Shown: positions 10,598 through 64,000, counted from the first letter of the stretch. The stretch is DNA of 64,000 bases from Microbacteriaceae bacterium (GCA_947443745.1 CANEXL010000001.1:3185-67184); one strand, 5' to 3'. Notes: generated by a model from the letters alone, not told the origin. Numbers and translations are program-made.

Positions 10598-10620
10598 TTC
10601 ACCCAGCCCTCGGTAGTCAA

Positions 10621-11654: not shown

Positions 11655-11676
11655 CACAACCAAGAAGGAGATCCCC

Positions 11677-12006
11677 ATGTCAGCTGCACCCGCAGTGACC
11701 GATGCGACTTTCGCAGCCCAGGTCCTCGCTAGTTCCAAGCCCGTTCTCGTCGACTTTTGGGCAGAGTGGTGTGGCCCCTGCCGCGCCGTTGGGCCCATCC
11801 TCGATCAGATCCTGTTGGAGAATGGCGACAAGATCGACATCGTCAAGCTCAACGTCGATGAGAACCCCCAGACAGCCGCTTTGTACCAGATCACCTCCAT
11901 CCCCGCGATGAAGGTCTTCCAAAACGGTGAGGTCGTCAAGACCATCATCGGCGCTAAGCCCAAGCCAGCCATCGAGGCTGACCTCGCTGCATTCATCGGC
12001 TCATAA
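11677..12006 (+). CDS. trxA: Thioredoxin
   Basis: WCGPC; AAGGAG SD before ATG 11677. Confidence 0.97.
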   Translation: MSAAPAVTDATFAAQVLASSKPVLVDFWAEWCGPCRAVGPILDQILLENGDKIDIVKLNVDENPQTAALYQITSIPAMKVFQNGEVVKTIIGAKPKPAIEADLAAFIGS

Positions 12007-12026
12007 CCGCTCTCCACGCACATCTT

Positions 12027-12064
12027 CGAAACCGCTTGGCCTTCTGGTCAGGCGGTTTCGTTTT
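12027..12064 (+). terminator. trxBA terminator
   Basis: CGAAACCGC...GCGGTTTCG hairpin followed by TTTT. Confidence 0.8.
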
Positions 12065-12109
12065 GAACAGTGAATTCATGCCCCGGATGACGGCAACTAA
12101 TATTGGGAT

Positions 12110-13429: not shown

Positions 13430-13451
13430 CCCACGAAAGGCACCGTTCTTT

Positions 13452-14417: not shown

Positions 14418-14463
14418 ATTCTCGCTTTCGAACGAGGTTTGCTGGAGAGCTTGCCGGATTGCC

Positions 14464-29803: not shown

Positions 29804-29877
29804 GGGGCTATAGCTCAGGTGGTTAGAGCGCTTCACTGATAATGAAGAGGTCCCAGGTTCAAGTCCTGGTAGCCCCA
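29804..29877 (+). tRNA. tRNA-Ile(GAT)
   Basis: Cloverleaf GGGGCTA...TAGCCCCA; anticodon loop CTGATAA. Confidence 0.97.
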
Positions 29878-29911
29878 CAAGTTTCTCGTCTGAGATACTT
29901 AACTGCAGTAC

Positions 29912-29984
29912 GGGGCCTTAGCTCAATTGGTAGAGCGCCTGCTTTGCAAGCAGGAGGTCAGGAGTTCGATTCTCCTAGGCTCCA
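29912..29984 (+). tRNA. tRNA-Ala(TGC)
   Basis: GGGGCCT...AGGCTCCA with G3:U70; anticodon loop TTTGCAA. Confidence 0.97.
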
Positions 29985-29990
29985 CAAACG

Positions 29991-49831: not shown

Positions 49832-50857
49832 GTGACTTCTGCTCCGCACTCTGCCACGAATCCCGCCACGAACCCTGCCACGAACCCCGCCGTTACCGGG
49901 GACAATATTTCGCGAGACGCCCTTCGCGCCGTCTTTTCTCTCACGGGAACGCAGCCGCGGGTAATTTCGTCGCGCCAGGAAATAATGGGCGGCCACGGCA
50001 CGATTACGTTAGTCGGTGCCTCCGACGCCCTGATGACGCGGGCGTGGGACGTTGTGCGCACGTGCGAAAAACGCTGGACGCGGTTCTCGCCCGACAGTGA
50101 TATTTCTCGACTCAACCTCGCCGAAGGGGCGCCCGTTGAGGTTGATCCACTCACCTTCCGCCTGATCTCCGCAATGAGGGTGGGCCACGAAATATCCTTG
50201 GGTGCTTTCGATCCCACTCTCTTAGTCGACGAGCTCAAGGCGGGTTACGGCGCCTCCGTTCTCGACCCGTCCCGTGCGACGACCCTGCCGGCCTCGGCGG
50301 TGAGCCCGGGGAACATGGCGGGCATCCGCCTGGCTGACACCACCGTCACCCTGCCGCTGGGCACCGTGCTGGACGCCGGGGGAATTGGCAAGGGACTTGC
50401 CGCCGACCTCGTGTGTGCATTCGCGCTCGCCGAGGGGGCGTGGGGCGTAATGGCGGAGATCGGGGGCGACATTGCGGTTGCGGGGAACGCTCCGGACGGA
50501 GTGGCCTGGCGACTCGGCATTGAGAACCCTTTTGACACGCAGGCGCATGCGGCGATCATCCGGTTATCTGAAGGCGCCATTGTGACGTCGAGCCAACGCA
50601 AACGTCGATTTGGCCCGGAAGGCAACGAGACCCATCACCTGATTGACCCGGCGACCCATGCCAGCGCGAAAACGAACGTGCAAACGGTGACGGTGATTGC
50701 GGCAACCGCGGCGCGAGCCGAAGCCCTCACGAAACCCGGTTTTCTTCAAGAAACGACTCGCTACCTGGAATGGTTGCCGACCGTCGGTGCGGCGGGCATG
50801 GTTATAGATGACGCGGGGGCCGAACTGGTTTCCGAGAACTGGATTCGATATCAATGA
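49832..50857 (+). CDS. apbE: FAD:protein FMN transferase (ApbE family)
   Basis: RFSPDSDISRLN, GAFDPT, LDAGGIGKGLAAD, IGGDI, WRLGIENP, TSS, HHLIDP. Confidence 0.93.
   Translation: MTSAPHSATNPATNPATNPAVTGDNISRDALRAVFSLTGTQPRVISSRQEIMGGHGTITLVGASDALMTRAWDVVRTCEKRWTRFSPDSDISRLNLAEGAPVEVDPLTFRLISAMRVGHEISLGAFDPTLLVDELKAGYGASVLDPSRATTLPASAVSPGNMAGIRLADTTVTLPLGTVLDAGGIGKGLAADLVCAFALAEGAWGVMAEIGGDIAVAGNAPDGVAWRLGIENPFDTQAHAAIIRLSEGAIVTSSQRKRRFGPEGNETHHLIDPATHASAKTNVQTVTVIAATAARAEALTKPGFLQETTRYLEWLPTVGAAGMVIDDAGAELVSENWIRYQ
49853..49891 (+). repeat. 12-bp tandem repeat x3 (ATNP)
   Basis: GCCACGAAYCCY units. Confidence 0.85.
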
Positions 50858-52434
50858 ATGATCCGCACATCTGGTGGTACATCACCCGTGCCAGCGCGCT
50901 GATTGCGTGGGCGTTGATGACGCTCTCTGCCATCTGGGGCATTCTGCTCTCCACCCGCATCATGCGCCGCATCGATAACCCCGGTTGGCTGCGCGACTTG
51001 CACTCCTACCTGGGCGGAATGACGCTCGTCATGGTGGGCCTGCACATGGGCAGCCTCATGCTCGACGGCTATCTTCGTTATACGCTCGGCGACCTTCTCG
51101 TTCCTTTCAGCAAGGACTACCGACCGTTTGCCGTGGCCCTCGGAATTCTGGCCTTTTATATATTGCTGGCCGTTCAGGGGTCCTCCCTTCTCATTGCGCG
51201 CTTGCCGCGAAAGGTGTGGAAGGTCATTCATTACGCCAGCTACGCGACGCTGATCTTGGTGTCGTTGCATGCCGGATGGACGGGCACGGATGTTGGAGCC
51301 CTCTGGTACAAAATTCTGGCGATTACCCTCATTGGCGCCGCGACGATTGCGGTCGTCGTTCGAGTGGTGACGCGCGGCCGCACGGGACGAGCTCCCACGG
51401 CGAAAGCATGGACGCACAAATCGGGCACCATTCCCAGCGTTGCTCCTGTTGCTGCTGGTGCTCCCCTTCTTCCGGCGACGCGCACGATGGTGGTTGCTTC
51501 CACATCCATGGCAGCGGATGCCGTGATGGCCATTCGGCTCGTGTCCCTCGGCGGATCGGCTGGTGGCGGGACTGGTGCTGTGGGCTCTGGGGCCTTGCCC
51601 GTCTGGTATCCCGGCGCGCACATCACGCTGTCACTGCCTAACGGGTTGCAGCGCCAGTACTCGCTGTGCGGCGACCCCGCCGAGCGCGACCACTTCGACA
51701 TCGCGGTACTGAAGACCCGTCACTCCGAGGGGGGCAGCGAGTTCATTCACGCGAACCTCACCCCGGGCATGACGCTCGAGGTCTCTGGGCCGCTCAACCA
51801 CTTCGAGCTGGAGCCCGCCTCCGACTACCTCTTTATTGCCGGCGGTATCGGCATCACGCCGATTAAGGCCATGATCGAGTCGTTGCCCGAGCGTCGCCAT
51901 TGGCGCCTCATCTATGCCGGGCGTTCGCGCACGACGATGGCGTTCTTGCCCGAGTTGCTTCAGCGCTACCCCGATCGCATTTCGGTGCATGCCGCCGATG
52001 AACAGGATGCCGAACTCGACATCGCCTCCCTCGTGGTCGACACCGATGCGCAGGTCTACTGCTGTGGCCCCGAGTCGCTGATGAGCACCACGGCGGCGCT
52101 GGTACCGGCCGCCCAAATGCATTCCGAGCGCTTCGTCGCCGTCGAGCGCACCTCCGACGTTGCCGCCCAAGCGATTGACGTCACCTGCCGCAAGAGTAAG
52201 AAGGAGTTCGTGGTCGGTGCCGACCAGAGCATTCTTGAGGCGATGGAAGCCAACGGTATTCCCGTGCTGGGCTCGTGTCGCAAGGGGGTGTGCGGAACCT
52301 GCGAGGTGCGCATCGTGGAGGGCGAGCCCGTGCACCTTGACTCGGTGATGCCCGATGACGAAAAGGATTCTTTGCGCGTGATGTACCCGTGCGTCTCGCG
52401 GGCCGTGGGCAAGGAGCTCGTGCTCGACATCTAG
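50854..52434 (+). CDS. Ferric reductase-like (heme b) TM domain fused to a PDR/VanB-type flavin/NAD(P)H/2Fe-2S reductase
   Basis: TM histidines in LHSYLG, LHMG, WKVIHYASY, LHA; RQYSLC, GGSE, AGGIGITP, YCCGP, CRKGVCGTC...C. Confidence 0.9.
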   Translation: MNDPHIWWYITRASALIAWALMTLSAIWGILLSTRIMRRIDNPGWLRDLHSYLGGMTLVMVGLHMGSLMLDGYLRYTLGDLLVPFSKDYRPFAVALGILAFYILLAVQGSSLLIARLPRKVWKVIHYASYATLILVSLHAGWTGTDVGALWYKILAITLIGAATIAVVVRVVTRGRTGRAPTAKAWTHKSGTIPSVAPVAAGAPLLPATRTMVVASTSMAADAVMAIRLVSLGGSAGGGTGAVGSGALPVWYPGAHITLSLPNGLQRQYSLCGDPAERDHFDIAVLKTRHSEGGSEFIHANLTPGMTLEVSGPLNHFELEPASDYLFIAGGIGITPIKAMIESLPERRHWRLIYAGRSRTTMAFLPELLQRYPDRISVHAADEQDAELDIASLVVDTDAQVYCCGPESLMSTTAALVPAAQMHSERFVAVERTSDVAAQAIDVTCRKSKKEFVVGADQSILEAMEANGIPVLGSCRKGVCGTCEVRIVEGEPVHLDSVMPDDEKDSLRVMYPCVSRAVGKELVLDI

Positions 52435-52490: not shown

Positions 52491-52573
52491 GCGCGAGTGG
52501 CGAAATGGCAGACGCGCCGGCTTCAGGTGCCGGTGCCCGCAAGGGCGTGGGGGTTCAAGTCCCCCCTCGCGCA
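52491..52573 (+). tRNA. tRNA-Leu(CAG)
   Basis: GCGCGAG...CTCGCGCA; anticodon loop TTCAGGT; long variable arm. Confidence 0.96.
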
Positions 52574-52581
52574 CGTATCGA

Positions 52582-52629
52582 AACCCGCTCCGACCAGGGC
52601 TTCACTGGGAGGGGCGGGTTCTCTTTTTT
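52582..52629 (+). terminator. Terminator after tRNA-Leu
   Basis: AACCCGCTCC...GGGGCGGGTT followed by CTCTTTTTT. Confidence 0.7.
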
Positions 52630-52645
52630 GCCGTCTTGATTCCAG

Positions 52646-52672
52646 TTATTGCGCTTATTGCGCTTATTGCGT
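52646..52672 (+). repeat. 9-bp tandem repeat x3 (TTATTGCGY) in a promoter
   Basis: TTATTGCGC TTATTGCGC TTATTGCGT upstream of the TACAAT -10 element. Confidence 0.85.
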
Positions 52673-52703
52673 TTACACACGCACTTGTGCTTACAATGGG
52701 GAC

Positions 52704-53159
52704 ATGTCTCTCACTGTGAACGAACATCGCCCTAACGACGATTCAGAATTGGCCGGTCGTGCTTTGGTTTCCGTACGCCGTGCTCTTGCCGAACATCACG
52801 GAGAGGATGGCCCCGTCTCCTTAATTGTGGAAGGCGAGAAGGCTCCTCTCGCTGTTCCCCGCCAGGCTATTGACTTGCTGGTGAAAATTTTGGCGAACAT
52901 TGCCGCAGGCCAGAGCGTTAGCATCGTCCCTCAGCACGCAGAGCTCACGACGCAACAAGCAGCCGAAATTTTAAACGTCTCTCGCCCATTCCTAGTCAAA
53001 CTCCTCGACGAGGGAAAGATTGAGTTCAAGCGTGTCGGCACTCATCGCCGCATTCGAGCGGATTCATTGCTTCAATACAAACACGACGATGACGCGAGGG
53101 GCCGGACAGAAGTAGCCGAGTTGATACAACTAGGCCAGGAAATGGGCCTCGCGCGGTGA
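52704..53159 (+). CDS. Excisionase-like HTH_17 DNA-binding protein (putative antitoxin)
   Basis: ELTTQQAAEILNVSRPFLVKLLDEGKI....GTHRRI. Confidence 0.88.
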   Translation: MSLTVNEHRPNDDSELAGRALVSVRRALAEHHGEDGPVSLIVEGEKAPLAVPRQAIDLLVKILANIAAGQSVSIVPQHAELTTQQAAEILNVSRPFLVKLLDEGKIEFKRVGTHRRIRADSLLQYKHDDDARGRTEVAELIQLGQEMGLAR

Positions 53160-53474
53160 CGTTTGGACCGTGACCGTGACCGTGACCGTGACGACCGGCA
53201 CGTGGTCGCTGCTGCGATCAAGGCCCGAGCTCAGGTAATCGTCACCTTCAACCTGGCGGACTTTCCAAACGCTGAGCTTTCGAAGTGGGACATCGAGGCG
53301 AAACATCCCGACGACTTTTTGGTTGATCAGTTCTATCTTGACGGGCCGGCAATGCACCGAACGATTCAAAAAATCGCGGACAGCTGGAAGAACCCAACAG
53401 GAACCGCCGAGGACGTGCTTAACAGTATGGAACGCGAGAAGCTACCTCTTATCTCCGCTTTGCTTCGCCGCTGA
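53156..53474 (+). pseudogene. PIN-domain toxin remnant, N-terminal half deleted
   Basis: Only the C-terminal DDRHVVAAAI..A.VIVTFNL.DFP...HPDDFL remains; the overlapping GTG start reads MTFGP-stop; (GACCGT)4 at the junction. Confidence 0.75.
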
Positions 53475-53533
53475 CTCATCGTTTTAAGTTCGGGGAACCG
53501 CGGGGTGCACCACGCTTCACACGCGTCTTAGCG

Positions 53534-54610
53534 CTAGTAAATGCCGGGGATAATCCTGTACTTGACCTTCGCGGTGTACTGGCCCCACAGCGCTCCGTAC
53601 TTTGCCTCGCAGACCTTCTCGTCATCGCGTTCGCGGGTGACAAAAAGCGCAACGTAATAGAACGGGTACAACCACACCATCCAGATACCAAAGTAGCCAG
53701 ATGCCAGCGCGATGGCCACGGCTTGCGTGATCTCACCGAGGTAGTTAATGTGCCGGCTGCCGCCCCAAAATCCGTTGACGAGCAAGCTGTTCTTTCCGTC
53801 GCTGATGGCCTGGGGCGCGATGCCTAAGAATGTGCGCTTGGGAGCAGTCCTGAAGCGGAACTTTTGCATGTTTGCGCCGCGGGTGAGAACCCAGCCACCG
53901 AGGAAAAGGGCGGCAAAAAGAATTGTGGCCCACGCGGGGATGCCGGGGTTGGGAAGGTCGGCCGTGAACCAAATGGCAACGGAGTAAAAATATGGATAGA
54001 AGGCGAGACACCCGAAGCCGAGCTTGAAGCCCACGCGCTCCGCAATGAAATCGTACGTCCACAGGTGTACACGCTCGAAAAATAAGTATTCGAAGCAAAA
54101 CCAGGTGAGCATGGCGCAGGCAAGCAGAAATCCAGGGTTAATTTCTTCAACATTGGTGAGGTGAAACGCCGCGAACGAGAGAACGTTCAGTTGCAGCATC
54201 ACGGCGCCCACAAGGTAAAGCCAGACCTTGGCATCGATGAAACCGTCTTTGAATTGCGTGTTTTTCGACCGACCGAACCAGAAATCAGCAAGAAATGATG
54301 CGTGCACGGAAGGGAACTTCAGCACGATGAAAAACGAGTAGGCCAGACCGATGATGACGGCTCCGATGAGGCCCCACCCACGTGTCTCGTAGAGCCAGGT
54401 GTAGGGAACGATGTTGGTAGAGCCGAGGAGAAACCACAGAAAGATGCTGGCCACCAACACGTAGCGTCCGTTGATGCGGTATCGCAACACCTCACCGGTG
54501 GCGTCATTGGTTACATAGCCCGTGACCCGGCGGGTGGGAATGACAACGTGTAGCAAGGTGATCACGGCATACGCGATGAGCGGGGTGATGAGACCCAAAA
54601 AAATTGTCAC
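53534..54610 (-). CDS. ERG4/ERG24 family sterol reductase-like membrane protein
   Basis: D...E..GF.L.FG, LLVNGFWGGSRHINYLGE, R...D...C..KYG..W..Y...V.YRIIPGIY. Confidence 0.88.
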   Translation of the reverse strand: MTIFLGLITPLIAYAVITLLHVVIPTRRVTGYVTNDATGEVLRYRINGRYVLVASIFLWFLLGSTNIVPYTWLYETRGWGLIGAVIIGLAYSFFIVLKFPSVHASFLADFWFGRSKNTQFKDGFIDAKVWLYLVGAVMLQLNVLSFAAFHLTNVEEINPGFLLACAMLTWFCFEYLFFERVHLWTYDFIAERVGFKLGFGCLAFYPYFYSVAIWFTADLPNPGIPAWATILFAALFLGGWVLTRGANMQKFRFRTAPKRTFLGIAPQAISDGKNSLLVNGFWGGSRHINYLGEITQAVAIALASGYFGIWMVWLYPFYYVALFVTRERDDEKVCEAKYGALWGQYTAKVKYRIIPGIY

Positions 54611-55404
54611 GACAAGCCTCCTGTGTTTTTCGCCATAATACCGATGGCGGCGCGCCGGCTCAGTAGCCGGGTCATCATGAATCGCCCCATTTTGTTCACG
54701 ACGCCAGGAACCACAACGGGGCCGTTGCCAAGAGCCTCCAACGCCTGTTCCGCGACCGCGGCAGCCGACAGCGTCCCGGGCGCACGTCGGGCGCTTTCCG
54801 CTTGCTCATATCCGGGGGTGAGAATTGCCCCTGGGGTGCACACCAGCACGTCGAGCCCCAGGGGTGCGAGTTCTTTCCAGAGCCCCTCAGCCAAGATGGT
54901 GTTGAATGCTTTCGTTGCCGCATAGGTGGCCAGATTGGGGCTACCTTGGCCACCGGCAAGCGAAGACATGAGAATAATCCCGCCACTTCCTCGTTGGATC
55001 ATGGGGGTGGAGAACAGTTTCGTCAACAACAGCGGTGCCACCACGTTGACAGCCGCCGCGGTCGCGAGCTGAGCTTCGGTTGTTTCGGCAAACGGACCAA
55101 TGGGAGCGGAAGCAGCGTCATAAACGAACAGGCCGATGTGAACATCGAGTGCGGCCACACGCTTCTTCACGTCGTCGACGTCGGCCAGGTCGGCGGCGAC
55201 GGTGATCACGTCAACGCCGTACGCATCACGAATCCGGGCGGCCGTGGAGTTAAGAGCATCTTCGTTGCGGGCAAGGATGACGAGGTTTACACCGCGTCGT
55301 GCAATTCCCTCTGCGAACGCCGCGCCGAGGCCGTACGACCCTCCGGCAACCAGTGCGTAAGGTCCGTACTTCTGCGTAAACGGAAATGGATTTATAGTTT
55401 CAAT
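54607..55404 (-). CDS. Short-chain dehydrogenase/reductase; start codon non-canonical or mutated
   Basis: The frame extends upstream of the ORF track call to KYGPYALVAGGSYGLG; catalytic YAATK; no ATG/GTG/TTG before the Rossmann motif. Confidence 0.85.
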   Translation of the reverse strand: METINPFPFTQKYGPYALVAGGSYGLGAAFAEGIARRGVNLVILARNEDALNSTAARIRDAYGVDVITVAADLADVDDVKKRVAALDVHIGLFVYDAASAPIGPFAETTEAQLATAAAVNVVAPLLLTKLFSTPMIQRGSGGIILMSSLAGGQGSPNLATYAATKAFNTILAEGLWKELAPLGLDVLVCTPGAILTPGYEQAESARRAPGTLSAAAVAEQALEALGNGPVVVPGVVNKMGRFMMTRLLSRRAAIGIMAKNTGGLS

Positions 55405-55522
55405 GGAAAAATCCTAGCGCGAGACTTCTCAGATCCACGGTTGATTTATGTGGTGTGGTCCTAGTCGCACGAGCTGAGAATAATATAGAGAAACGATTTC
55501 TCTGACAGAACCCGAGGGCATT

Positions 55523-57676
55523 GTGAAGTTCATCGCACGCGTCGTCACCGCGCGCCCCCTCGTGGCGCTCCTGGTGTTTCTGGGCCTTGTCGGTTTCTCT
55601 GCCATCTGGGGCATGCAGGCGTTTGGCAACTTGCAGGCCGCCGGATACAACGACCCCAGCAGTGAGTCGACGCAGGTCTACAACGAACTGCAATCTACGT
55701 TCGGTGTCGATAACCCCGAGATGGTCATCATTGCCGACTTCGCCGAGCCGGTAGACACTGCCGCGACGAAGGCGGATGCTGCGTCTCTGACTGAAAACAT
55801 CCGTAACATTCCGGGCGTCAACAAGGTCACGAGCTACTTCAGCTTGGGCGAGCCCGCTTCGTTGAAGAGCACCGATTCCACCGCCGCGTATTTCTTCGTG
55901 AACTATGACTCCGGCGTTAAGGCGTCGGGGGAGACCACCCTTATCGAAAACACCCTCGGCAGCGAGCACGACGGCGCGAAGGTTTACTACACGGGAATTT
56001 CTGCCATGGCCAACGCCCTCACGGGCACGATCACGACAGACATTGGGCTGGCCGAGAGCATCGCCATCCCCCTGAGCTTGGTGCTGTTGGTGTTTGTTTT
56101 TGGTTCGATCGTGGCAGCCGGCCTTCCGCTGATGGTGGGCGGACTCGGCATGCTCGGCGCCTTCTTCTTTATCTGGGTCGCGACGCAGGCTACGGACGTC
56201 TCAATTTTTGCTCTCAACTTGGTGACGGGAATGGGCTTGGGCCTGGGCATTGACTATGCCCTGCTCATGGTCAACCGTTTTCGTGAGGAACGAGCGCGGG
56301 GCTTGATGGTCAAGGATGCGGTGACCCGCACCGTCGAGACAGCCGGGCGAACAGTTCTCTTCTCCGGACTGACGGTCGCGGTCATCATCGCCTCCATGGT
56401 GATTTTTCCGCAGTACTTCTTGCGCTCCTTCGCCTACGCGGGAGTTGCCGTTGTTTTCGTGGCCCTGCTGGGGGCACTCATTGCCCTTCCCGCCACCCTC
56501 ACTCTGCTCGGCGATCGCGTGAACAAGGTGCGCGTGCTTCGGGGCGACCTTGCGCCGAAAGATACCGGCGTCTGGGCGAGCGTTTCGCGATTCGTCATGA
56601 AACGTGCGATTCCCGTGCTCATCATCACCCTGCTCGGCCTCGGCGGACTCATCGCCCTGGGCACCAATGTAAAGTTCGGCCTGGTCGATGAACGCATTCT
56701 GCCGAAGGATGCCCCGATCGCCGTCGCGAGTGAGATTCAACGCACGCGATTCGACGGCCAAGAGGGAAAGCCTGTCGAGATCATCATTGCTGGCGCGACT
56801 CAGCGCGAACTTCAGGACTACGTTGACACCCTGAGTTCGACCGAGCACATTGTTCGGGTGCAGAGTCAGCTCGGCATCACTGTAGGCGGTGCGACCAATG
56901 CCCAGGCGGCACCAGCTTTTGCGAACTACGTCGTGGGCGACGAGCAACGGGTCGTCGTGATTGACAACGTCGAGGCTCGCAGTAACGCTGGAACCGACCT
57001 TGTGGCGAGCATCCGTCATATTGATCCACCGTTCTCGGTAAAGATCGGTGGCATTGCCGCCGACTACTCCGACTCGATCAAAGGCATTACCGACAAGCTC
57101 CCTGCCTTGTTGATCTGGGTCTTCGCCTCGACGCTGATTTTGCTGTTCCTCTTTACGGGCAGCATCCTTCTACCTATCAAGGCCTTCTTGCTGAACGTCA
57201 TCACGCTGAGTGCAACACTCGGATTCCTGTGCTGGGTGTTCCTGGACGGCAACATGAAATGGCTCTTCGGTGACTTCGCGCTCACCGGCTCGATTGATGC
57301 TTCCAACTTCATCCTCATCGCTGTCGTCGCCTTCGGTCTCTCGATGGACTATGAGCTGTTCCTGCTGAGCCGCATCAAAGAGCTGCACGACCAGGGCTTC
57401 AGCACCGAAGAATCTGTCGCCCTTGGCCTTCAGCGCAGTGGCCGCATCATCACGGCGGCGGCCCTTGTTCTCGCTGTCAACTTCTTGCCGTTCGTGACCT
57501 CGGGTGTGACGAGCATCAAGATGCTGGGGCTGGGCCTGGCCTTCGCTATTTTGTTGGATGCCACTGTGGTGCGGGCGTTCCTTGTGCCGGCGCTGATGAA
57601 GCTTTTCGGCGCGGCAAACTGGTGGGCTCCGCGATGGATGAAGTGGGTCTTCACCAAGGTGGGCCTCGATCACTAG
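55523..57676 (+). CDS. MMPL/RND family lipid transporter
   Basis: GLGIDYALLMVNRFREE, AGRTVLFSG, FGLSMDYELFLLSRIKE, LDATVVR..LVPA. Confidence 0.94.
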   Translation: MKFIARVVTARPLVALLVFLGLVGFSAIWGMQAFGNLQAAGYNDPSSESTQVYNELQSTFGVDNPEMVIIADFAEPVDTAATKADAASLTENIRNIPGVNKVTSYFSLGEPASLKSTDSTAAYFFVNYDSGVKASGETTLIENTLGSEHDGAKVYYTGISAMANALTGTITTDIGLAESIAIPLSLVLLVFVFGSIVAAGLPLMVGGLGMLGAFFFIWVATQATDVSIFALNLVTGMGLGLGIDYALLMVNRFREERARGLMVKDAVTRTVETAGRTVLFSGLTVAVIIASMVIFPQYFLRSFAYAGVAVVFVALLGALIALPATLTLLGDRVNKVRVLRGDLAPKDTGVWASVSRFVMKRAIPVLIITLLGLGGLIALGTNVKFGLVDERILPKDAPIAVASEIQRTRFDGQEGKPVEIIIAGATQRELQDYVDTLSSTEHIVRVQSQLGITVGGATNAQAAPAFANYVVGDEQRVVVIDNVEARSNAGTDLVASIRHIDPPFSVKIGGIAADYSDSIKGITDKLPALLIWVFASTLILLFLFTGSILLPIKAFLLNVITLSATLGFLCWVFLDGNMKWLFGDFALTGSIDASNFILIAVVAFGLSMDYELFLLSRIKELHDQGFSTEESVALGLQRSGRIITAAALVLAVNFLPFVTSGVTSIKMLGLGLAFAILLDATVVRAFLVPALMKLFGAANWWAPRWMKWVFTKVGLDH

Positions 57677-57780
57677 GACGCGAACACTGGGACGCGTCCA
57701 ATATGCGTCAGCCCCTTCCGCCTTCCCCTGAAACTGATGTAGTCTAGCGACATTGTTCGGGGGTAAGTGAAGGTACGCGT

Positions 57781-59670
57781 ATGAAAAATCCTCGGAGAAA
57801 AGTATTTCGCGCCATCGCCGTTGCCGCCGCCGCCTCCATGGCCCTTGCTCTCAGCGCGTGCGGTTCGCTCATCGTGGACAACCCGGGAGGAGTGGGCACA
57901 TGCGGTGGCAAAGTCGTGACGATCGCGGTCTCGCAAACAATCCCCGGGGCGCCTCTCAATGTTTCCTATACCGGGCCCGCCGACGTGTCACTATTTTTAA
58001 TGCTGGGAATATATTCTGATGGCGGCTTGGGCTCGCTCGGTTTGACCCCAGATGATCGAATCCTTGGCTTTGGCGACGCTGATGAAGATGTCCGAATCTA
58101 CAAACTCCCCTTCGCTGGCCCCGATTGGACCGCAGTGGGAAGTGGGGACTCAACGACATATTCCTACTCGGGAAGTGTCGCCGATTTTTATCGTTCTGCA
58201 ACAACTGATTTTTCCGTCATCGGCACACTCGCCGAAGTCATTCCGACCGTTGTCGGCGTCGACTGTAATCCGAACGATGGCTCCCAAAATTTGGTAGCGC
58301 CCACGACGTCGCTTTTTACCGCGGCTGCTGGCATAGCGCCCAACACGGCAAACATTGATCCCCTTGCGGTCATGAGCCAGACGGTCTCGCCTTCAGGAGA
58401 CCAGGTCACCGGGGTGCTGCGATTCCCGAGCGGCGCGGAGACCAACTTTGCCACCTTCGTGCCGACAACGGAAAGCATCATTGGAGTATCCCTTGAGGCC
58501 GCAGAGCCCACTTACTTGGGAATGGGCGGGATCGCCTGGTTGCTTCTCAACAGGGGCCCACAACCGGTTACCCTTTCCGTCACGGGCACCTTGGCATTTG
58601 GCAAAGATCTTCCCTTTACGCTCACAAAAACGGGAGGCGGGAGCATTCCAGAAGGTAATTACTTTGTTTATCTAGCCATGACCGATAACGCCGGAGACAT
58701 CGGCTTTGCCCGCTCGTCTATGACGTATAGCGCCGCCTCGGGGCTGACCCTGGCCGACACACGTACGGTCACCTATAACGGAAATACCGACGATAGTGGT
58801 GCGCCGCCACAGTCGCAGACCATCGTGGTCGGTGACTCGGGATTGACGTTGCCGGGATCGGGCACCTTACACAAGACCGGCTACACGTTTAAGGGGTGGG
58901 CGGAGTCTGCTGGCGACGCGAACGGCGTCGGGGCAACCCCGTTGACGGGTTCGTATGCTCCGACGGCGTCGGTCACGCTGAATGCCGTGTGGGAGGCGGA
59001 TGTTTACCGGGTCACCTACGACGCAAATATGACGGATGTTGTTGCGCCCGCGTCTGAAGACTTCACGTATGGTGATCCCGTATTGACGCTGGCTCCGGTG
59101 GGTTCGATGGCCAAGGACGGTTTTGCTTTCCGGGGTTGGTCCGAGTCTGCCGGCGTTGATGGTGCGGGGGGTGTGGCCGTTTCTGATTCCTATTCGCCGA
59201 CGGCGTCGATCACGTTGTATGCGATGTGGATTCCACAGTATGTGGTGACGTATGACGCGAACAATGGCGACGGCGCGGCATCCGAGGCAACCCAAGCCTT
59301 CGCGATAGGTGATGACGCGTTGACGTTCCCGACGGTGGGTTCGTTGGCGAAGACCGGATACTCGTTTATGGGGTGGGCGGAGTCTGCGGGTGACGCGAAT
59401 GGTGTCGGCGAAACCCCGTTGACGGGTTCATACACTCCAACCGCATCGACCACGTTGTACGCGGTGTGGGTCGCTGACCCGCCCGTCGTTGTTGCTGACC
59501 CGCCCGCGGTTGCCGCTGACCCGCACGCGGTTATTGCCGCGGCCCTGTCCCAGACCAATGGAGCTTACGGCCCGACACTCGCAATCGGTTTCATCGCTTT
59601 ACTCTTTGGGACCGTCGCCCTAGGCGTTGGTCGTCGCCGACGCTTTTCAGGAACTCGACAATCTCGGTGA
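57781..59670 (+). CDS. Cell-surface protein with three InlB B/Listeria-Bacteroides-type repeats
   Basis: Signal with LSAC; 3x VTY..N...K.GY.F.GW...TL.A.W; C-terminal LSQTN-TM-RRRR. Confidence 0.82.
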   Translation: MKNPRRKVFRAIAVAAAASMALALSACGSLIVDNPGGVGTCGGKVVTIAVSQTIPGAPLNVSYTGPADVSLFLMLGIYSDGGLGSLGLTPDDRILGFGDADEDVRIYKLPFAGPDWTAVGSGDSTTYSYSGSVADFYRSATTDFSVIGTLAEVIPTVVGVDCNPNDGSQNLVAPTTSLFTAAAGIAPNTANIDPLAVMSQTVSPSGDQVTGVLRFPSGAETNFATFVPTTESIIGVSLEAAEPTYLGMGGIAWLLLNRGPQPVTLSVTGTLAFGKDLPFTLTKTGGGSIPEGNYFVYLAMTDNAGDIGFARSSMTYSAASGLTLADTRTVTYNGNTDDSGAPPQSQTIVVGDSGLTLPGSGTLHKTGYTFKGWAESAGDANGVGATPLTGSYAPTASVTLNAVWEADVYRVTYDANMTDVVAPASEDFTYGDPVLTLAPVGSMAKDGFAFRGWSESAGVDGAGGVAVSDSYSPTASITLYAMWIPQYVVTYDANNGDGAASEATQAFAIGDDALTFPTVGSLAKTGYSFMGWAESAGDANGVGETPLTGSYTPTASTTLYAVWVADPPVVVADPPAVAADPHAVIAAALSQTNGAYGPTLAIGFIALLFGTVALGVGRRRRFSGTRQSR

Positions 59671-59681
59671 CCTTGGTCTTG

Positions 59682-60716
59682 CTAGGGCTTCACAATCTTG
59701 TTGTCAATCAGAAAGTTCGCCGTTTCAACGAGGGATTGGTCGACGGGAATAAAGTCAATTCCCAACACCGTGTGAGCCTTCGCGTTGTTCACACCGACGT
59801 GGTGGCCAAGGCTTGGCAAAACCGACCGAATTTCGCTGTCAAAGAGTGCCAAGAAGCGAATCAGGATGCTCGGAGCCTGTCTGGTCGTGATTTTACGTGT
59901 GGGGAAGGCAGCCGCGAGAGTCTTCGCCGCGTCAACGAAGGTTCTCAGGCCGGCACTCGCGATAAAGCGTTGACCTTTGGCGGCATCCGTTGAGATGGCT
60001 TTCACGTGCATCGCTGCGACATCTTTAACATCGACGACGTTGAAGGAGATGTCGGGCAGCACGGGGTCTTTGCCGTTCAAGATCCTCTCGACAACGGAGA
60101 CCGATGCCCCAAACTTCAGGTCAAGGGGCGCCCCAGCAACCAGCACGGGGTTCACCGTCGTGAGTTCTAGCTCCGGCGCTTCGGTCTCGATGTAATTCCA
60201 CGCCGCCCGCTCCGCAAGAGTCTTCGACTTCGTGTACGCAACACGGCCAACGATGTGAGTGGGGTCACTCCACATCGTTTCGTCAAACTCTGTTGCGCCC
60301 GCGGGAAGGTCGTTCCCATAGATAGCGGCAACGGAGGAGGTCAAAATGACGCGTTTTACACCGGCTCCATGGGCGGCTTTGAGCGCCCGCAGTGTTCCCT
60401 CAACGGCGGGACGGATCAGCTCGTTCTCATCTTTTGGCTGAGCGATGGGGAATGGGGACGCGCTGTGAATGAGCACGTCAACACCGTGGATCGCGGAATC
60501 CCAGCCCGCATCGCTCTCGAGGTCGAGCTCTACGAAACTCAATTTTTTCGCCAGGTCAAAGCCTGCCGGCAGGTGGGCGAGCATGGCGGCACGGACTTCG
60601 TCGGCCTTGGCGCTGTTACGAACGGAGGCCCTCACCTCGTAGCCATCCGTCAAGAGCCTCAACGTAATGTGCTTGCCGATATAGCCGCTTGAACCTGTGA
60701 GAAGAACCTTCGTCAT
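59682..60716 (-). CDS. NAD-dependent epimerase/dehydratase (aldehyde reductase-like)
   Basis: TGSSGYIG, HSASP, TSS.AA, YTKSKTLAE. Confidence 0.9.
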   Translation of the reverse strand: MTKVLLTGSSGYIGKHITLRLLTDGYEVRASVRNSAKADEVRAAMLAHLPAGFDLAKKLSFVELDLESDAGWDSAIHGVDVLIHSASPFPIAQPKDENELIRPAVEGTLRALKAAHGAGVKRVILTSSVAAIYGNDLPAGATEFDETMWSDPTHIVGRVAYTKSKTLAERAAWNYIETEAPELELTTVNPVLVAGAPLDLKFGASVSVVERILNGKDPVLPDISFNVVDVKDVAAMHVKAISTDAAKGQRFIASAGLRTFVDAAKTLAAAFPTRKITTRQAPSILIRFLALFDSEIRSVLPSLGHHVGVNNAKAHTVLGIDFIPVDQSLVETANFLIDNKIVKP

Positions 60717-60847
60717 CTGCTGACTCTCTGTCGGGGATGCGCCCTCAAGGGACGCCACAAAAATACTATAAGTGCTCGCCGTCTAGACTTTCGCGCTCAG
60801 TGATGTTGCTACTGGGTTATAGGCCCCAACCCCCATGGGCAATATTG

Positions 60848-61207
60848 CTATTGCGTGTGCGAGTGGCCAGCCTCTACTTCAGCGCCGAACTTGAAACCTA
60901 GGCGACCGTGCGTGTAGCCACCACCGGCGCGAATGGCTGTTGCTACCCAAGCTGCTTCTGCCAACTCGCCTTCGGAGGCTCCGGCCTTGACGGCGTTCTG
61001 GGAATGAGCTTCGATGCAGTACGGGCACTGTGTCGTGATGCCGACGGCTAGGGCAATAAGTTCGCGGTACTTCAGCGGAATCTCACGGCCCTCGGGTGCG
61101 AAAACCGCATTGTCGAAGGCGCTAAACGCGGCGAGGATGTCGGGGGTCTCCTTCTTGTAGACCCGGGTGTACTTCTGGTCTTCTGTGCGATCAAAAAATT
61201 CAGACAT
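60848..61207 (-). CDS. Carboxymuconolactone decarboxylase/AhpD-like protein
   Basis: ELIALAVGITTQCPYCIEAH. Confidence 0.9.
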   Translation of the reverse strand: MSEFFDRTEDQKYTRVYKKETPDILAAFSAFDNAVFAPEGREIPLKYRELIALAVGITTQCPYCIEAHSQNAVKAGASEGELAEAAWVATAIRAGGGYTHGRLGFKFGAEVEAGHSHTQ

Positions 61208-61266
61208 CTGATGCTCCAATCAAGGGGGATGTGAAGGCGCCGGTTCACAGCGCCTTAGGTCAAGAG

Positions 61267-61292
61267 AACGCGCACGGAGGCTCTGCTATTCC
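61267..61292 (-). promoter_or_regulatory. SigH/SigR-type promoter of the AhpD-like gene
   Basis: GGAAT-N18-GTT on the minus strand, about 60 nt before the ATG. Confidence 0.65.
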
Positions 61293-61300
61293 AACAAGCG

Positions 61301-61927
61301 TCACGGCCAGGAAAGAGGCGCACCGACGTGCTGGTCGCACCAGGCGATGAGCGGCTCGACCGCTTTCCAACCGGCCAACACGTCATCCCGTGTCGCGGTT
61401 ACAGGGAGGGGCTTGAGGGCGGCGAAGTGCTTGAGGCGTAGAAGGTTAATCTGGGGATGGTCGCGGTCAAATCCCCGAGGCGCCGTCGTGAGGGAGGGAC
61501 CCGCCATCTCGAAACCGGCACGGGTGAGAGTCTCGACGATAGCCGTTAGCTTCGTGGCGGCTTCGGGCTGAGAATCGATGGCGGCACGAGCGCGCGCCAG
61601 TTGATCGCGACTGGGTCCGTAGACGCCACCGCCCACATCCAGATGGGTGGAATGCAAGCTGAGATACACACCGCCAACTGCGCCAGCCCACATGCTCGCG
61701 GCCGTTTTGTAGGGAGCCTTGTCGTTGCTGAACCGCACGTCACGGTTGGGCCGCATCACTCTGCCCGGGCCGTAGACAGGTTCGGCCCACCCCAGAAGAT
61801 CTTCAAGCGGTTGGCGGATGCTGTCGCGATACACCGGACGGTTCGCCTCGAAGAAGGTGCGGGAGTTGTCCGCCGTCAGGTCTTCCAAGAATTTTGCCGC
61901 TTCGGGACCGAATCCGGTGAATGTCAT
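61301..61927 (-). CDS. DUF2461 family protein
   Basis: FL..L..DNSR.FFEANR, RPNRDVRFSNDKAPYK, PRGF..DHP. Confidence 0.88.
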   Translation of the reverse strand: MTFTGFGPEAAKFLEDLTADNSRTFFEANRPVYRDSIRQPLEDLLGWAEPVYGPGRVMRPNRDVRFSNDKAPYKTAASMWAGAVGGVYLSLHSTHLDVGGGVYGPSRDQLARARAAIDSQPEAATKLTAIVETLTRAGFEMAGPSLTTAPRGFDRDHPQINLLRLKHFAALKPLPVTATRDDVLAGWKAVEPLIAWCDQHVGAPLSWP

Positions 61928-61987
61928 GGTTCCATTTTGCTCTACTCATGTCCCCGAGCCCGTTTCGCTAATGAAGAGTCTTGAACG

Positions 61988-62060
61988 TATTACGAAATCG
62001 TAGTAACGTAGTTCTAATACGAAATCGTAATAGCAGTGTTCTATAACGAAATCATAATAA
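61988..62060. promoter_or_regulatory. Triple palindromic operator array upstream of hipBA
   Basis: TACGA-AA-TCGTA at 61991 and 62018, and degenerate AACGAAATCATA at 62045; 27-bp period. Confidence 0.8.
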
Positions 62061-62095
62061 TTAATCCGGGCACCATCGCCAATGTCAGGAAAACG

Positions 62096-62329
62096 ATGCG
62101 TCAGAAAATGAAAATCTCCGGCCCCCAATCCCTGGGGCGATTAGTGCAGCAATCCCGCTTGGCTGCAGGGCTCACTCAAGTAGAGCTCGCCCAAGAACTC
62201 GGGATTTCTCAGCGGGCAATCACCGACATTGAGACCGGTAAAGCAACGATTCAGGTTCGTCGACTGTTCGACCTGCTCAAGATGACCGGGGCCAGCCTCG
62301 GAGGAGAATGGGACACGGCCGATGAGTGA
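62096..62329 (+). CDS. hipB: HipB-like XRE antitoxin
   Basis: R...GLTQ.ELA..LGIS...I..IE.GK; overlaps the hipA start; start is 62096 or 62108. Confidence 0.85.
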   Translation: MRQKMKISGPQSLGRLVQQSRLAAGLTQVELAQELGISQRAITDIETGKATIQVRRLFDLLKMTGASLGGEWDTADE

Positions 62330-63557
62330 ACTCGCTGTCGAACTTTATGGCCAGCGGATTGGCGTTTTATCCGGAGACAATTTCCGCTCATTTGACATCA
62401 CGTTTGATCCCTCGGCCGTCGCGCACTTCGGCTCAAGCAGCCAAGTGATGTCGATGGCGGTGCCCCTAGACCCGACTCGAAATCGAGGCCACGCGAGCCG
62501 TCGACGCAACTTCTTCGCCGGGCTATTGCCCGAGGGAACCCAACTCGAGAGCATGGCACGAAACGCGCAGCTCAGTCAGTTCGACACCTTGGGCCTGTTG
62601 GCCCGCTACGGTCGCGACGTCGCGGGAGCAATTCAGATCTGGGACATCAACGACCCGAGTGAACCGCGCACTCCCCGACGCGAAGCCGTCACGGACGCAA
62701 TCGTTAGTGACATGCTCCGTGACCTATCGGGCCAACCGCTGGGAAACGCGAAGCGCGGCGGAAAAACGTCCCTGCCCGGAGTGCAACCAAAAATCGTTCT
62801 TGCGCGCAGCGTCAACGGTTGGGCACGCGTGGTCGACGGTTACCCATCCACTCACATTCTCAAACCCGTTGTCGAAAAGTATCCCACCATGATTTTCGAC
62901 GAAGAATACGGGTCACGATTCGCACGTGAACTTGGCCTCGCTCACTTCAGCACGCAACTCGAGAAGTTCGGATCGACCGACGCTCTTGTGATTGAGCGTT
63001 ACGACCGTGACGCCAATCACCCCAGCGGCCGCACCCACCAAGAGGATCTCGCACAGGCGCTCGGTGTTCCCACCATTGAAAAGTACGAGAAGTACGGCGC
63101 GGTCACGTTGAAGCGCATCAGTCGCCTTCTTGACGATACCGACGGGGTGAACGCCCGGCGCACTCTCGTCAAGATGCTTACTCTCAGTGTGGCGGTGGGT
63201 AATTTGGACATGCATGCCAAGAACATCTCGTTGCTTCACAACGAGGACGGAACCGTAGGAATCGCGCCAATGTATGACGTGGTGCCTCAAGCGCACTACG
63301 ACACCGACGGTGAGTTTGCCTTTAGCGTGAACGGAGTTCTCAGCCACGCTGGGTTCACCCGAGCGGACCTGGTGGCAGAAGTCGCGACGTGGGGTGTCGG
63401 TCGCGCTGAAGATCTGATTAATGAAACGTTGGAGATAATCCGAGCGCTGGCGTACGTGGAGACCCCGCACGCATTTGCTGAACCGAGACTTCAGGATGAC
63501 GTTTTACGATTCACCCAGAATCTTCTCGAGGGCCGCGCTGCTGGAGCGTCACAGTAA
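62322..63557 (+). CDS. hipA: HipA family Ser/Thr kinase toxin
   Basis: FFAGLLPEG, SLPGVQPK, HILKP, ERYDR, HQED, GNLDMHAKNIS, APMYDV. Confidence 0.92.
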   Translation: MSELAVELYGQRIGVLSGDNFRSFDITFDPSAVAHFGSSSQVMSMAVPLDPTRNRGHASRRRNFFAGLLPEGTQLESMARNAQLSQFDTLGLLARYGRDVAGAIQIWDINDPSEPRTPRREAVTDAIVSDMLRDLSGQPLGNAKRGGKTSLPGVQPKIVLARSVNGWARVVDGYPSTHILKPVVEKYPTMIFDEEYGSRFARELGLAHFSTQLEKFGSTDALVIERYDRDANHPSGRTHQEDLAQALGVPTIEKYEKYGAVTLKRISRLLDDTDGVNARRTLVKMLTLSVAVGNLDMHAKNISLLHNEDGTVGIAPMYDVVPQAHYDTDGEFAFSVNGVLSHAGFTRADLVAEVATWGVGRAEDLINETLEIIRALAYVETPHAFAEPRLQDDVLRFTQNLLEGRAAGASQ

Positions 63558-63663
63558 ATAAAAAACCTCTCATGGCCCCGAACGGAGGTCGGCGTGCGAG
63601 AGTGGAAGGGCCAGCGTTGCCCAGATAGGGCGTTGCACGTTCTACGGAAAGGCATCCGACCTC

Positions 63664-64000
63664 ATGACACACGCCCCCCGGCTTCGAGCCATCGTCGCCA
63701 TCGTTGCTCTGATTCTCCCCTTTGTCGCCATCCTGATGTCGTGGATGCTGTGGAGCCAGCAACTACCTCCCGAGCTTGCGTCGCACTGGTCGGGAACGGG
63801 CGCGGCCGACGGGTTTCTGCCCACCACCGGGGTGTTGATCGGGGCTCTCATTGCGACCGCCGTCACCGCCGTGGGGGGAATTCTTGCGTGCTTCGTGGGG
63901 AATCTCAGCGCCAACGCCCGGCGCAATACTGTCTTTCTGCTCGGCCTGATCGGTGGGGTGGGCATGGCCGCGTGGCTCATTCCTGTTCCGCTGACGATTC
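63664..64000 (+). CDS. DUF1648 membrane protein, 3' truncated by window edge
   Basis: Hand translation: TM then LPPELASHWSGTGAADGF; frame open to the window end. Confidence 0.75.
   Translation, partial: MTHAPRLRAIVAIVALILPFVAILMSWMLWSQQLPPELASHWSGTGAADGFLPTTGVLIGALIATAVTAVGGILACFVGNLSANARRNTVFLLGLIGGVGMAAWLIPVPLTI

What the first reader, a model, noticed from the sequence alone, without database searches (positions are those of the whole stretch)
53534..57676. Sterol-reductase-like gene plus SDR, divergent from an MMPL transporter: possible sterol scavenging or modification cassette
Seen: an SDR overlapping (4 nt) an ERG4/ERG24-family gene with the intact C-terminal signature; 118 bp away, a divergent MMPL. 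Established: ERG4/ERG24/DHCR7 are mainly eukaryotic sterol reductases and sporadic in bacteria; SDRs include hydroxysteroid dehydrogenases; MMPL/RND relatives move hopanoids and sterols. No cyclase is in the window. Inference: uptake and reduction of environmental sterols or a similar lipid.
Basis: partly seen in the sequence, partly recalled or inferred. Interest (0 to 1): 0.6.

Follow-up and report, generated by a model that had tools for sequence, protein, structure and literature searches.

The report
Portable SDR plus short sterol-reductase-like pair
The sterol-reductase-like gene and the dehydrogenase gene that overlaps it form a tightly conserved two-gene unit found in scattered bacteria from several phyla, including strict anaerobes; its substrate is unknown, and the neighbouring MMPL transporter is only a chance neighbour.

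Summary
A 358-aa ERG4/ERG24-family membrane reductase (53534-54610, minus) overlaps by 4 nt a classical SDR (54607-55404, minus). An MMPL gene (55523-57676, plus) diverges from them.

Two corrections. The SDR has no ATG, GTG or TTG start, so it must begin at ATT 55404 or ATA 55395. The reductase is a short form that lacks the first ~67 residues (first membrane helix) of canonical sterol reductases.

SDR plus reductase is a real unit: 72 of 73 testable species-representative loci keep it, 64 with the same 4-nt overlap, and so do 52 of 63 more distant metagenome loci. It occurs in Microbacteriaceae, Demequinaceae, anaerobic Bacillota and termite-gut Treponema at 60-87% identity.

The MMPL is not linked (1 of 160 loci), and no third gene is conserved. 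The pair is sporadic: 7 of 200 other Microbacteriaceae genomes, and none in a 97%-complete genome of the same genus. Here it lies in a ~15 kb strain-specific block beside tRNA-Leu. No squalene or oxidosqualene cyclase was found.

Best reading: a self-sufficient NADPH-dependent module that modifies a membrane lipid the host does not make through a cyclase, probably an acquired sterol-like lipid. The substrate is untested. First-stage readers of this scan noted the same pair in five other genomes.

The parts
53534..54610 (-). Short-form ERG4/ERG24-family NADPH-dependent membrane reductase, 358 aa, GTG start, about nine membrane helices
   Evidence: PF01222 at 146.6 bits. Sequence match to 4QUV at E 1.2e-29. 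AlphaFold model with pLDDT 93.9. Structural match to 4QUV at Z 37.4, rmsd 2.6 A, 343 residues, model 1-358 against chain 68-427.
54607..55404 (-). Classical SDR, about 265 aa, overlapping the reductase by 4 nt. Probable non-canonical ATT start at 55404 (or ATA at 55395).
   Evidence: adh_short at 77 bits. The open frame lacks a canonical start. Across 114 partner SDRs the Gly motif, Arg46 after strand 2 (the NADP(H)-type position), Asn120, Ser147/148, Tyr161 and Lys165 are at least 95% conserved.
55480..55508 (-). Promoter-like site (CTGTCA-17-TATTAT) for the SDR-reductase operon, overlapped by a perfect palindrome AGAGAAA-TCG-TTTCTCT (55487-55503)
   Evidence: Consensus scan and inverted-repeat search. 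These are pattern matches only; function is not shown.
55523..57676 (+). MMPL (MmpL3-like) transporter. A neighbour, not part of the conserved module.
   Evidence: PF03176 at 230.9 bits. Below every NCBIfam equivalog cut-off. Not linked to the pair elsewhere.
52491..52574 (+). tRNA-Leu(CAG), marking the left edge of a ~15.4 kb strain-specific block that holds the pair. The block runs from 52587 past the window end to about window-equivalent 67946.
   Evidence: ARAGORN. Synteny with same-genus genome G100 stops at the tRNA and resumes at G000:C1:71131.

Best explanation
The SDR and the short ERG4/ERG24-type reductase form an autonomous, translationally coupled two-enzyme module.

The membrane enzyme uses cytoplasmic NADPH to saturate a C=C bond of a lipid that reaches its pocket from within the bilayer. 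The NADP(H)-type SDR handles the neighbouring oxygen function. It either reduces a 3-keto-like carbonyl, or it cycles an alcohol through a ketone so that the double bond becomes reducible.

The host has no cyclase and many carriers are strict anaerobes, so the substrate is not a self-made sterol. It is most likely a sterol-like lipid taken up passively from algal, plant, fungal or protist material. No dedicated transporter is required, and the MMPL next door is a chance neighbour within a strain-specific variable block.

Shown here: the family, fold and motifs of both enzymes; the conserved linkage; the sporadic distribution; the lack of MMPL linkage. Inferred: NADPH use, the order of steps, and the sterol-like identity of the substrate.
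For: Linkage:
- 72 of 73 testable GTDB loci have the SDR directly upstream on the same strand, and 64 have exactly the 4-nt overlap. In a more distant clade (ERG 45-65% identical), 48 loci have it upstream and 4 have it convergent, out of 63.
- No other gene family recurs near the pair.

Enzymes look active:
- The reductase keeps both NADPH-signature blocks and matches the MaSR1 fold at Z 37.4.
- The SDR keeps its catalytic tetrad and the Arg typical of NADP(H) binding.

Not sterol biosynthesis:
- No SQHop_cyclase N or C domain in the genome.
- Carriers include Christensenellaceae, other Clostridia and termite-gut Treponema.

Accessory and mobile:
- Found in 7 of 200 other Microbacteriaceae genomes and about 1% of sampled Actinomycetota, and not found in same-genus G100.
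- It lies in a 15.4 kb block that G100 lacks.
- In the tree, Humimicrobiales (Actinomycetota) nest inside the Bacillota clade.

Precedents:
- Every characterised PF01222 enzyme I know of is a sterol C=C reductase (own knowledge).
- Coxiella Stmp1/CBU1206 is a bacterial family member that modifies host sterol (PMC8787468).
- DHRSX plus SRD5A3 shows how an SDR can work together with a membrane reductase (PMC11250103).
Against: - No substrate evidence of any kind was obtained.
- The short form is a separate clade from canonical sterol reductases (about 30% identity; 100* branch), so substrate transfer by homology is weak.
- The SDR's best curated match is mycolate reductase (134 bits, cut-off 380), followed by generic ketoacyl reductases. 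That fits an acyl or isoprenoid chain as well as a steroid.
- Most free-living bacteria are not known to incorporate sterols (own knowledge).
- In this genome the SDR lacks a canonical start codon, so this copy may be poorly expressed.
Confidence: 0.45

Rival explanations
1. The pair modifies an endogenous non-sterol lipid common to all hosts. One option is saturating an allylic isoprenoid alcohol such as a polyprenol or a phytol-like alcohol, through alcohol to enal to saturated aldehyde to alcohol, as DHRSX and SRD5A3 do. Another is acting as ketoacyl and enoyl reductases on a long acyl chain.
For: - The hosts lack sterol synthesis, and many are anaerobes.
- The SDR is nearest to mycolate reductase and 3-ketoacyl reductase models.
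- The reductase fold is shared with steroid 5-alpha-reductase-type enzymes (7C83 at Z 13.0, 7BW1 at Z 12.5), the group that includes the polyprenal reductase SRD5A3.
- The three-step SDR plus membrane-reductase logic is documented for dolichol (PMC11250103).
- One distant relative has a FA_hydroxylase neighbour in place of the SDR.
Against: - The protein scores as PF01222, not as the Steroid_dh or TECR families. Known PF01222 activities are all on sterols (own knowledge).
- A modification of a universal lipid would be expected in more than about 1-4% of related genomes.
- No condensing enzyme or dehydratase is co-located.
Confidence: 0.3
2. One reading: a three-gene cassette in which the MMPL imports or exports sterols that the SDR and the reductase then modify.
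For: - The genes are divergent, 118 bp apart.
- RND/MMPL relatives such as HpnN and BstA move hopanoids and sterols (NCBIfam model names).
- All three genes lie in the same strain-specific block.
Against: - An MMPL is present near the pair in 1 of 160 loci, and that hit is only 28% identical.
- In G142 and G053 the MMPL orthologues are on contigs other than the pair's.
- The MMPL scores 51 bits for HpnN and 28 bits for BstA, against 406 bits for MmpL3, and all are below their cut-offs.
Confidence: 0.05
3. In this genome the module is decaying. Loss of the SDR start codon has silenced or crippled the operon, leaving a remnant in a variable region.
For: - There is no ATG, GTG or TTG in the first 65 codons of the SDR, whereas every homologue examined has one.
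- The adjacent PIN_3 gene is a 103-aa fragment.
- The setting is a mosaic variable block.
Against: - Both frames are intact, with no stops or frameshifts. The SDR is 83% and the reductase 87% identical to the nearest relative's, and the catalytic residues are kept.
- ATT 55404 lies at the position of L008's ATG, behind the same AGGA. AUU starts are used in a few bacterial genes (own knowledge).
- The reductase has its own GTG start.
Confidence: 0.12

Closest known systems
MaSR1, delta(14)-sterol reductase of Methylomicrobium alcaliphilum (PDB 4QUV), and the canonical ERG24/TM7SF2/LBR, ERG4 and DHCR7 enzymes
   Same: Same Pfam family and same fold (Z 37.4, rmsd 2.6 A over 343 residues). The same C-terminal NADPH-binding signature blocks are present.
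   Different: - Only 28-33% identical, and a separate, well-supported clade.
- Lacks the first ~67 residues, i.e. the first helix.
- Always paired with an SDR.
- Found in hosts without sterol synthesis.
Coxiella burnetii Stmp1 (CBU1206), a delta-24 sterol reductase that modifies host sterols (PMC8787468)
   Same: A bacterial ERG4/ERG24-family enzyme in an organism that makes no sterol and acts on acquired sterol. This is the model for the 'scavenged sterol' reading.
   Different: Coxiella is an intracellular pathogen bathed in host cholesterol. The carriers here are free-living or gut bacteria. I did not compare sequences directly, because no Coxiella sequence was available through the tools.
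DHRSX plus SRD5A3, the three-step polyprenol to dolichol route (PMC11250103)
   Same: A soluble or peripheral SDR works with a polytopic NADPH reductase of the same structural superfamily. The SDR makes the double bond reducible and then restores the alcohol.
   Different: SRD5A3 belongs to the steroid 5-alpha-reductase family, not PF01222. The system is eukaryotic, and the two genes are not linked.
Uncharacterised eukaryotic short-form ERG4/ERG24 proteins (Monosiga brevicollis A9VAA6, chytrids, Rigifila, Phalansterium)
   Same: Closest relatives outside the bacterial clade (40-49% identity), with a similar short length of 376-410 aa.
   Different: Their function is also unknown. No SDR fusion was seen among the extended forms scanned, apart from one 785-aa metagenome protein that carries an Epimerase/3Beta_HSD-type domain.
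Mycolate reductase CmrA and 7-beta-hydroxysteroid dehydrogenase (the closest named matches to the SDR)
   Same: Classical SDR fold. The best NCBIfam hits are mycolate_SDR at 134 bits and 7betaHSDH at 92 bits. PDB 5FYD aligns over residues 10-238.
   Different: Both scores are far below the equivalog cut-offs (380 and 300), so the SDR is a member of neither family.

Membership tests
ERG4/ERG24 (PF01222) | Profile match above Pfam's gathering score | tested here: met
   146.6 bits against a cut-off of 27, E 1.2e-42.
ERG4/ERG24 (PF01222) | C-terminal signature blocks (G-x-W-G-x-x-R-H-x-N-Y-x-G-[DE] and R-x-x-x-D-x-x-x-C-x-x-K-Y-G) | tested here: met
   GFWGGSRHINYLGE and RERDDEKVCEAKYG are present. 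These positions are invariant or at least 90% conserved across 45 sequences, including canonical members.
ERG4/ERG24 (PF01222) | MaSR1-type polytopic fold | tested here: met
   AlphaFold model at pLDDT 93.9. 4QUV match at TM 0.87 and Z 37.4, rmsd 2.6 A, 343 aligned residues.
ERG4/ERG24 (PF01222) | Full ten-helix architecture, including the N-terminal helix | tested here: not met
   The profile match starts at position 78 of 432. The model aligns to 4QUV residues 68-427 only. All close homologues are 356-361 aa.
Characterised sterol reductase clades (ERG24/LBR, ERG4, DHCR7) | Falls inside a clade of canonical 420-480 aa sterol reductases | tested here: not met
   The short forms are separated from six canonical representatives by a 100* branch, with 26-30% identity. 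Caveat: the canonical rows carry only source names, and no experimentally characterised sequence could be included.
Characterised sterol reductase clades (ERG24/LBR, ERG4, DHCR7) | NADPH-dependent reduction of a sterol C=C bond | not testable with these tools
   This needs an enzyme assay or yeast complementation.
Bacterial sterol or hopanoid biosynthesis pathway | A squalene-hopene or oxidosqualene cyclase in the genome | tested here: not met
   PF13243 and PF13249 give no match in G000, which is 87.9% complete. The only SQS_PSY gene found is on another contig.
Classical SDR (PF00106) | Profile match, Gly-rich dinucleotide motif and the Asn-Ser-Tyr-Lys tetrad | tested here: met
   adh_short at 77.3 bits against 26.6. 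The motif residues are at least 95% conserved among 114 partner SDRs and are present in the window copy.
Mycolate reductase (NF040690) and 7-beta-HSDH (NF050024) | Score above the equivalog cut-off | tested here: not met
   134.3 bits against 380, and 92.4 bits against 300.
MmpL3, HpnN and BstA lipid transporters | Score above the equivalog cut-off | tested here: not met
   MmpL3 406.6 against 1400. HpnN 51.1 against 751.85 (TIGR03480) and 23 against 1100 (NF052374). BstA 28.5 against 1400. The general MMPL Pfam model is met at 230.9 bits.
   1 of 80 GTDB loci (a 28%-identical hit 4 kb away) and 0 of 80 metagenome loci. In G142 and G053 the MMPL orthologue and the pair are on separate contigs.

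The most novel reading that the evidence does not exclude
The SDR plus short ERG4/ERG24 pair could be the so far unidentified enzyme system by which environmental and gut bacteria, many of them anaerobes, hydrogenate eukaryote-derived sterols to stanols or otherwise saturated sterols within their own membranes. That would give a genetic marker for the stenol-to-stanol conversion that geochemists use as a redox and faecal proxy. A less likely variant is a bacterial counterpart of the DHRSX/SRD5A3 route that saturates isoprenoid alcohols such as phytol.
Probability: 0.2. Interest if true: 0.8.

Novelty: new variant of a known kind. Interest (0 to 1): 0.5.

Why it matters
ERG4/ERG24 reductases are treated as hallmarks of sterol biosynthesis. 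Here a distinct short-form clade, always coupled to an SDR, is kept at 60-87% identity in bacteria that cannot make sterols, including strict anaerobes.

If the substrate is an acquired sterol, this would be a widespread bacterial sterol-remodelling system. That bears on membrane biology, on gut and termite symbioses, and on how sterol and stanol biomarkers are interpreted. If the substrate is not a sterol, it would be the first non-sterol activity in this family.

Either way the module is only two genes and should be simple to express and assay. For annotation, the practical lesson is that 'delta14-sterol reductase' labels on these genes are unsupported, and that the nearby MMPL should not be read as part of a sterol cassette.

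Tried and rejected
I used my own ORF calling, clustering and Pfam tallies instead.
I therefore could not check at read level whether the ATT/ATA start is real, and I could not check expression.
- A search for a third conserved gene found none. All recurrent clusters beyond the pair are shadow ORFs over the two genes. Upstream neighbours are heterogeneous, the commonest being AraC-type regulators in 5 of 128.
- Classical integrative island: rejected. No integrase and no tRNA-derived direct repeat were found.
- SDR-reductase fusion proteins among extended homologues: none with a classical SDR. There is one with an Epimerase/3Beta_HSD domain and one with FUN14.
- Brachyspira, whose membranes hold cholesterol and cholestanol (PMC4683989), as a possible carrier: no Brachyspira name appears among the 120 best hits to the Treponema homologue.
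- Literature searches for a described function of this pair found nothing. The MaSR1 paper was not held.
- A profile of nine distant relatives was too divergent for the metagenome scan. A five-sequence profile worked.
Full report
WHAT IS THERE

The ORF map and Pfam scan confirm three genes:
- a 358-aa ERG4/ERG24-family protein at 53534-54610 (minus strand; PF01222, 146.6 bits, profile positions 78-432 of 432);
- an SDR whose stop overlaps the reductase's GTG start by 4 nt;
- a divergent MMPL gene at 55523-57676 (PF03176, 230.9 bits).

The SDR needs a correction. Its frame is open from the TAG at 55416-55414, but the first canonical start is GTG 55209. A protein starting there would lose the Rossmann glycine motif: in that 200-aa ORF, the Pfam match begins at profile position 53. 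Aligning the upstream DNA of 19 homologous loci shows ATG or GTG where the window has ATA (55395), and in L008 an ATG where the window has ATT (55404). That ATT lies behind the same CTAGGATTTT context, with AGGA 7 nt upstream. This is plausible but non-canonical.

The organism is a ~2.0 Mb Microbacteriaceae metagenome-assembled genome (166 contigs, 87.9% complete).

THE REDUCTASE

It matches the bacterial delta(14)-sterol reductase MaSR1 (4QUV) by sequence at E 1.2e-29 over residues 27-358 against 94-427. Both C-terminal signature blocks are present. An AlphaFold model built from a 45-sequence alignment is confident (pLDDT 93.9, pTM 0.91). It superposes on 4QUV with TM 0.87 and Z 37.4, rmsd 2.6 A over 343 residues, model 1-358 against chain 68-427. 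The next best matches are steroid 5-alpha-reductases and ICMT, at Z 9-13.

The protein is therefore a genuine family member with the NADPH-binding half intact, but it lacks the first helix of the ten-helix enzymes. All close homologues share this short length of 356-361 aa.

An exhaustive HMMER search of 1.84 billion cluster representatives found only 1477 clusters at E <= 0.001. The nearest, at 40-49% identity, are other short forms. They come from Gammaproteobacteria and Treponema and from eukaryotes: Monosiga, three chytrids, Rigifila and Phalansterium. Canonical 420-480 aa forms are only about 30% identical. In a maximum-likelihood tree the short forms are separated from six canonical representatives by a 100* branch.

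THE SDR

It is a classical SDR. Across 114 partner SDRs, the glycine motif, an Arg directly after strand 2 (the position typical of NADP(H) preference, by established SDR classification), Asn120, Ser147/148, Tyr161 and Lys165 are at least 95% conserved, and all are present in the window copy. Its best curated matches are mycolate reductase (134 bits against a cut-off of 380) and generic ketoacyl reductases. 7-beta-HSDH scores 92 bits against 300, and PDB 5FYD aligns over residues 10-238. It is a member of none of these named families.

THE PAIR IS THE UNIT; THE MMPL IS NOT PART OF IT

In 80 loci from species-representative genomes (reductase 60-87% identical), 72 of the 73 with upstream sequence carry the orthologous SDR (57-84% identical) directly upstream on the same strand. 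In 64 of those the overlap is exactly 4 nt.

In 80 metagenome loci of a more distant clade (reductase 45-65% identical to the window's), 48 have the SDR upstream and 4 have it convergent downstream, out of 63 testable.

Clustering all flanking ORFs found no third conserved family in either set; the other recurrent clusters are shadow ORFs over the two genes. A Pfam tally of 128 upstream neighbours is heterogeneous, with AraC-type regulators commonest at 5 of 128.

An MMPL occurs near the pair in 1 of 160 loci, and that hit is 28% identical. In the two nearest relatives that carry both, the MMPL orthologue and the pair are on different contigs. The MMPL scores as MmpL3-like (406 bits, cut-off 1400) rather than HpnN (51) or BstA (28).

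DISTRIBUTION AND SETTING

The pair is sporadic:
- 7 of 200 other sampled Microbacteriaceae genomes carry it (6 of 101 genera, counting the window's own genome);
- a 97%-complete genome of the same genus (G100) has none;
- only 4 of 400 other sampled Actinomycetota genomes have a full-length PF01222 match.

Carriers include freshwater and soil Microbacteriaceae, Demequinaceae, Humimicrobiales, Christensenellaceae and other Clostridia, and termite-gut Treponema. In the tree the rows group largely by phylum, but Humimicrobiales nest inside the Bacillota clade. Single Verrucomicrobiota and Acidobacteriota rows sit among the Actinomycetota, which points to transfer or to binning error.

Synteny between the window and G100 runs up to tRNA-Leu(CAG) at 52491-52574 and resumes 15.4 kb later, beyond the window end. 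The intervening block is a mosaic: an HTH_17 gene, a PIN fragment, the pair, the MMPL, a Listeria-Bacteroides-repeat protein, an HpnA/3-beta-HSD-like epimerase, CMD, DUF2461, HipA, DUF1648 and PntAB. No integrase or att repeat was found.

No squalene-hopene or oxidosqualene cyclase domain was found in the genome. One phytoene/squalene-synthase-family gene lies on another contig.

HOW IT MOST LIKELY WORKS

- Shown: two intact, co-translated oxidoreductases. One is membrane-embedded with the MaSR1 fold and cofactor motifs. The other is an NADP(H)-type classical SDR. They are inherited and transferred together without any other partner.
- Inferred: the membrane enzyme saturates a C=C bond of a bilayer-resident lipid with NADPH. 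The SDR reduces an adjacent carbonyl, or transiently oxidises an alcohol so that the double bond becomes reducible and then restores it. The second scheme is the one established for DHRSX plus SRD5A3 in dolichol synthesis (PMC11250103).
- Substrate: the carriers have no cyclase and many are anaerobes, so the lipid is not a self-made sterol. Every characterised PF01222 enzyme I know of acts on sterols (own knowledge), and Coxiella's Stmp1 shows that a bacterium can use such an enzyme on acquired sterol (PMC8787468). I therefore rank an acquired sterol-like lipid first (about 0.45 for the whole statement). An endogenous isoprenoid or acyl lipid comes second (about 0.3).
- Not excluded: that this copy is impaired by its non-canonical SDR start (about 0.12). 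This does not conflict with either substrate reading.

NOVELTY

I found no paper that describes this pair. First-stage readers of this scan independently noted the same SDR plus 358/359-aa reductase arrangement in five other genomes. Those are unchecked notes, and my locus surveys now confirm the recurrence.

It is a new variant of a known enzyme family: a short-form, SDR-coupled clade in bacteria that make no sterols, with an unknown substrate. It is not a new kind of system. As a family it is a tractable target of moderate to good interest.

- No experimentally characterised reductase sequence could be brought into the tree.

Noticed in passing
window 52491-64000, continuing to G000:C1:71130 (L089 about 772-16131): A ~15.4 kb strain-specific mosaic block begins right after tRNA-Leu(CAG) and is absent from same-genus genome G100. 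No integrase or att repeat was found, so it is a variable region rather than a classical integrative element.
   Followed up: partly
window 55395-55404: The SDR has no ATG, GTG or TTG start. ATT 55404 (AGGA 7 nt upstream, at the same position as L008's ATG) or ATA 55395 (at the same position as L002's ATG) must serve as the start, unless the copy is impaired or the base is an assembly error.
   Followed up: partly
window 55487-55503: A perfect palindrome AGAGAAA-TCG-TTTCTCT lies in the divergent SDR/MMPL spacer and overlaps a sigma-70-like promoter match on the minus strand (55508-55480). It could be an operator, but no regulator gene is adjacent.
   Followed up: no
window 62322-63557 (with small ORF 62036-62329): A HipA-type kinase toxin gene (HipA_C and Couple_hipA domains) with a short upstream ORF that could be its HipB-like partner.
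   Followed up: no
L089 13046-16069 (just beyond the window end): PntA and PntB, the NAD(P) transhydrogenase that generates NADPH, lie in the same strain-specific block as the two putatively NADPH-dependent reductases. One other locus also has a PNTB gene among its upstream neighbours. This may be coincidence.
   Followed up: no
window 59682-60758 (minus): An extended-SDR gene of the Epimerase/3Beta_HSD family (HpnA model 127 bits against 367; SdmB model 58 against 600) lies 5 kb from the pair. Its linkage is not conserved: it is 7.4 kb away in L004 and on a different contig in G053.
   Followed up: partly
window 57781-59670: A 629-aa protein with Listeria-Bacteroides (Flg_new) repeats and ~240-nt internal DNA repeats, probably a surface protein.
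   Followed up: no
window 49832-52434: An ApbE flavin transferase gene is followed, with a 4-nt overlap, by a 526-aa protein with FAD_binding_6, NAD_binding_1 and 2Fe-2S ferredoxin domains. Its ~250 N-terminal residues are unassigned. This part is syntenic with G100.
   Followed up: no
window 29804-29985: Adjacent tRNA-Ile(GAT) and tRNA-Ala(TGC), the usual 16S-23S spacer pair, so an rRNA operon probably lies here.
   Followed up: no
P0192 (metagenome protein, 785 aa): A short ERG4/ERG24 domain is followed by an Epimerase/3Beta_HSD-type extended-SDR domain in one predicted protein. This is either a natural fusion or a gene-calling artefact.
   Followed up: no
L165 1801-4000 and L157 2754-4859: Two distant relatives, called as 449-452 aa ORFs (~97 residues longer at the N-terminus than the 358-aa form), have no adjacent SDR. 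L165 instead has a divergent FA_hydroxylase (sterol desaturase superfamily) gene.
   Followed up: no
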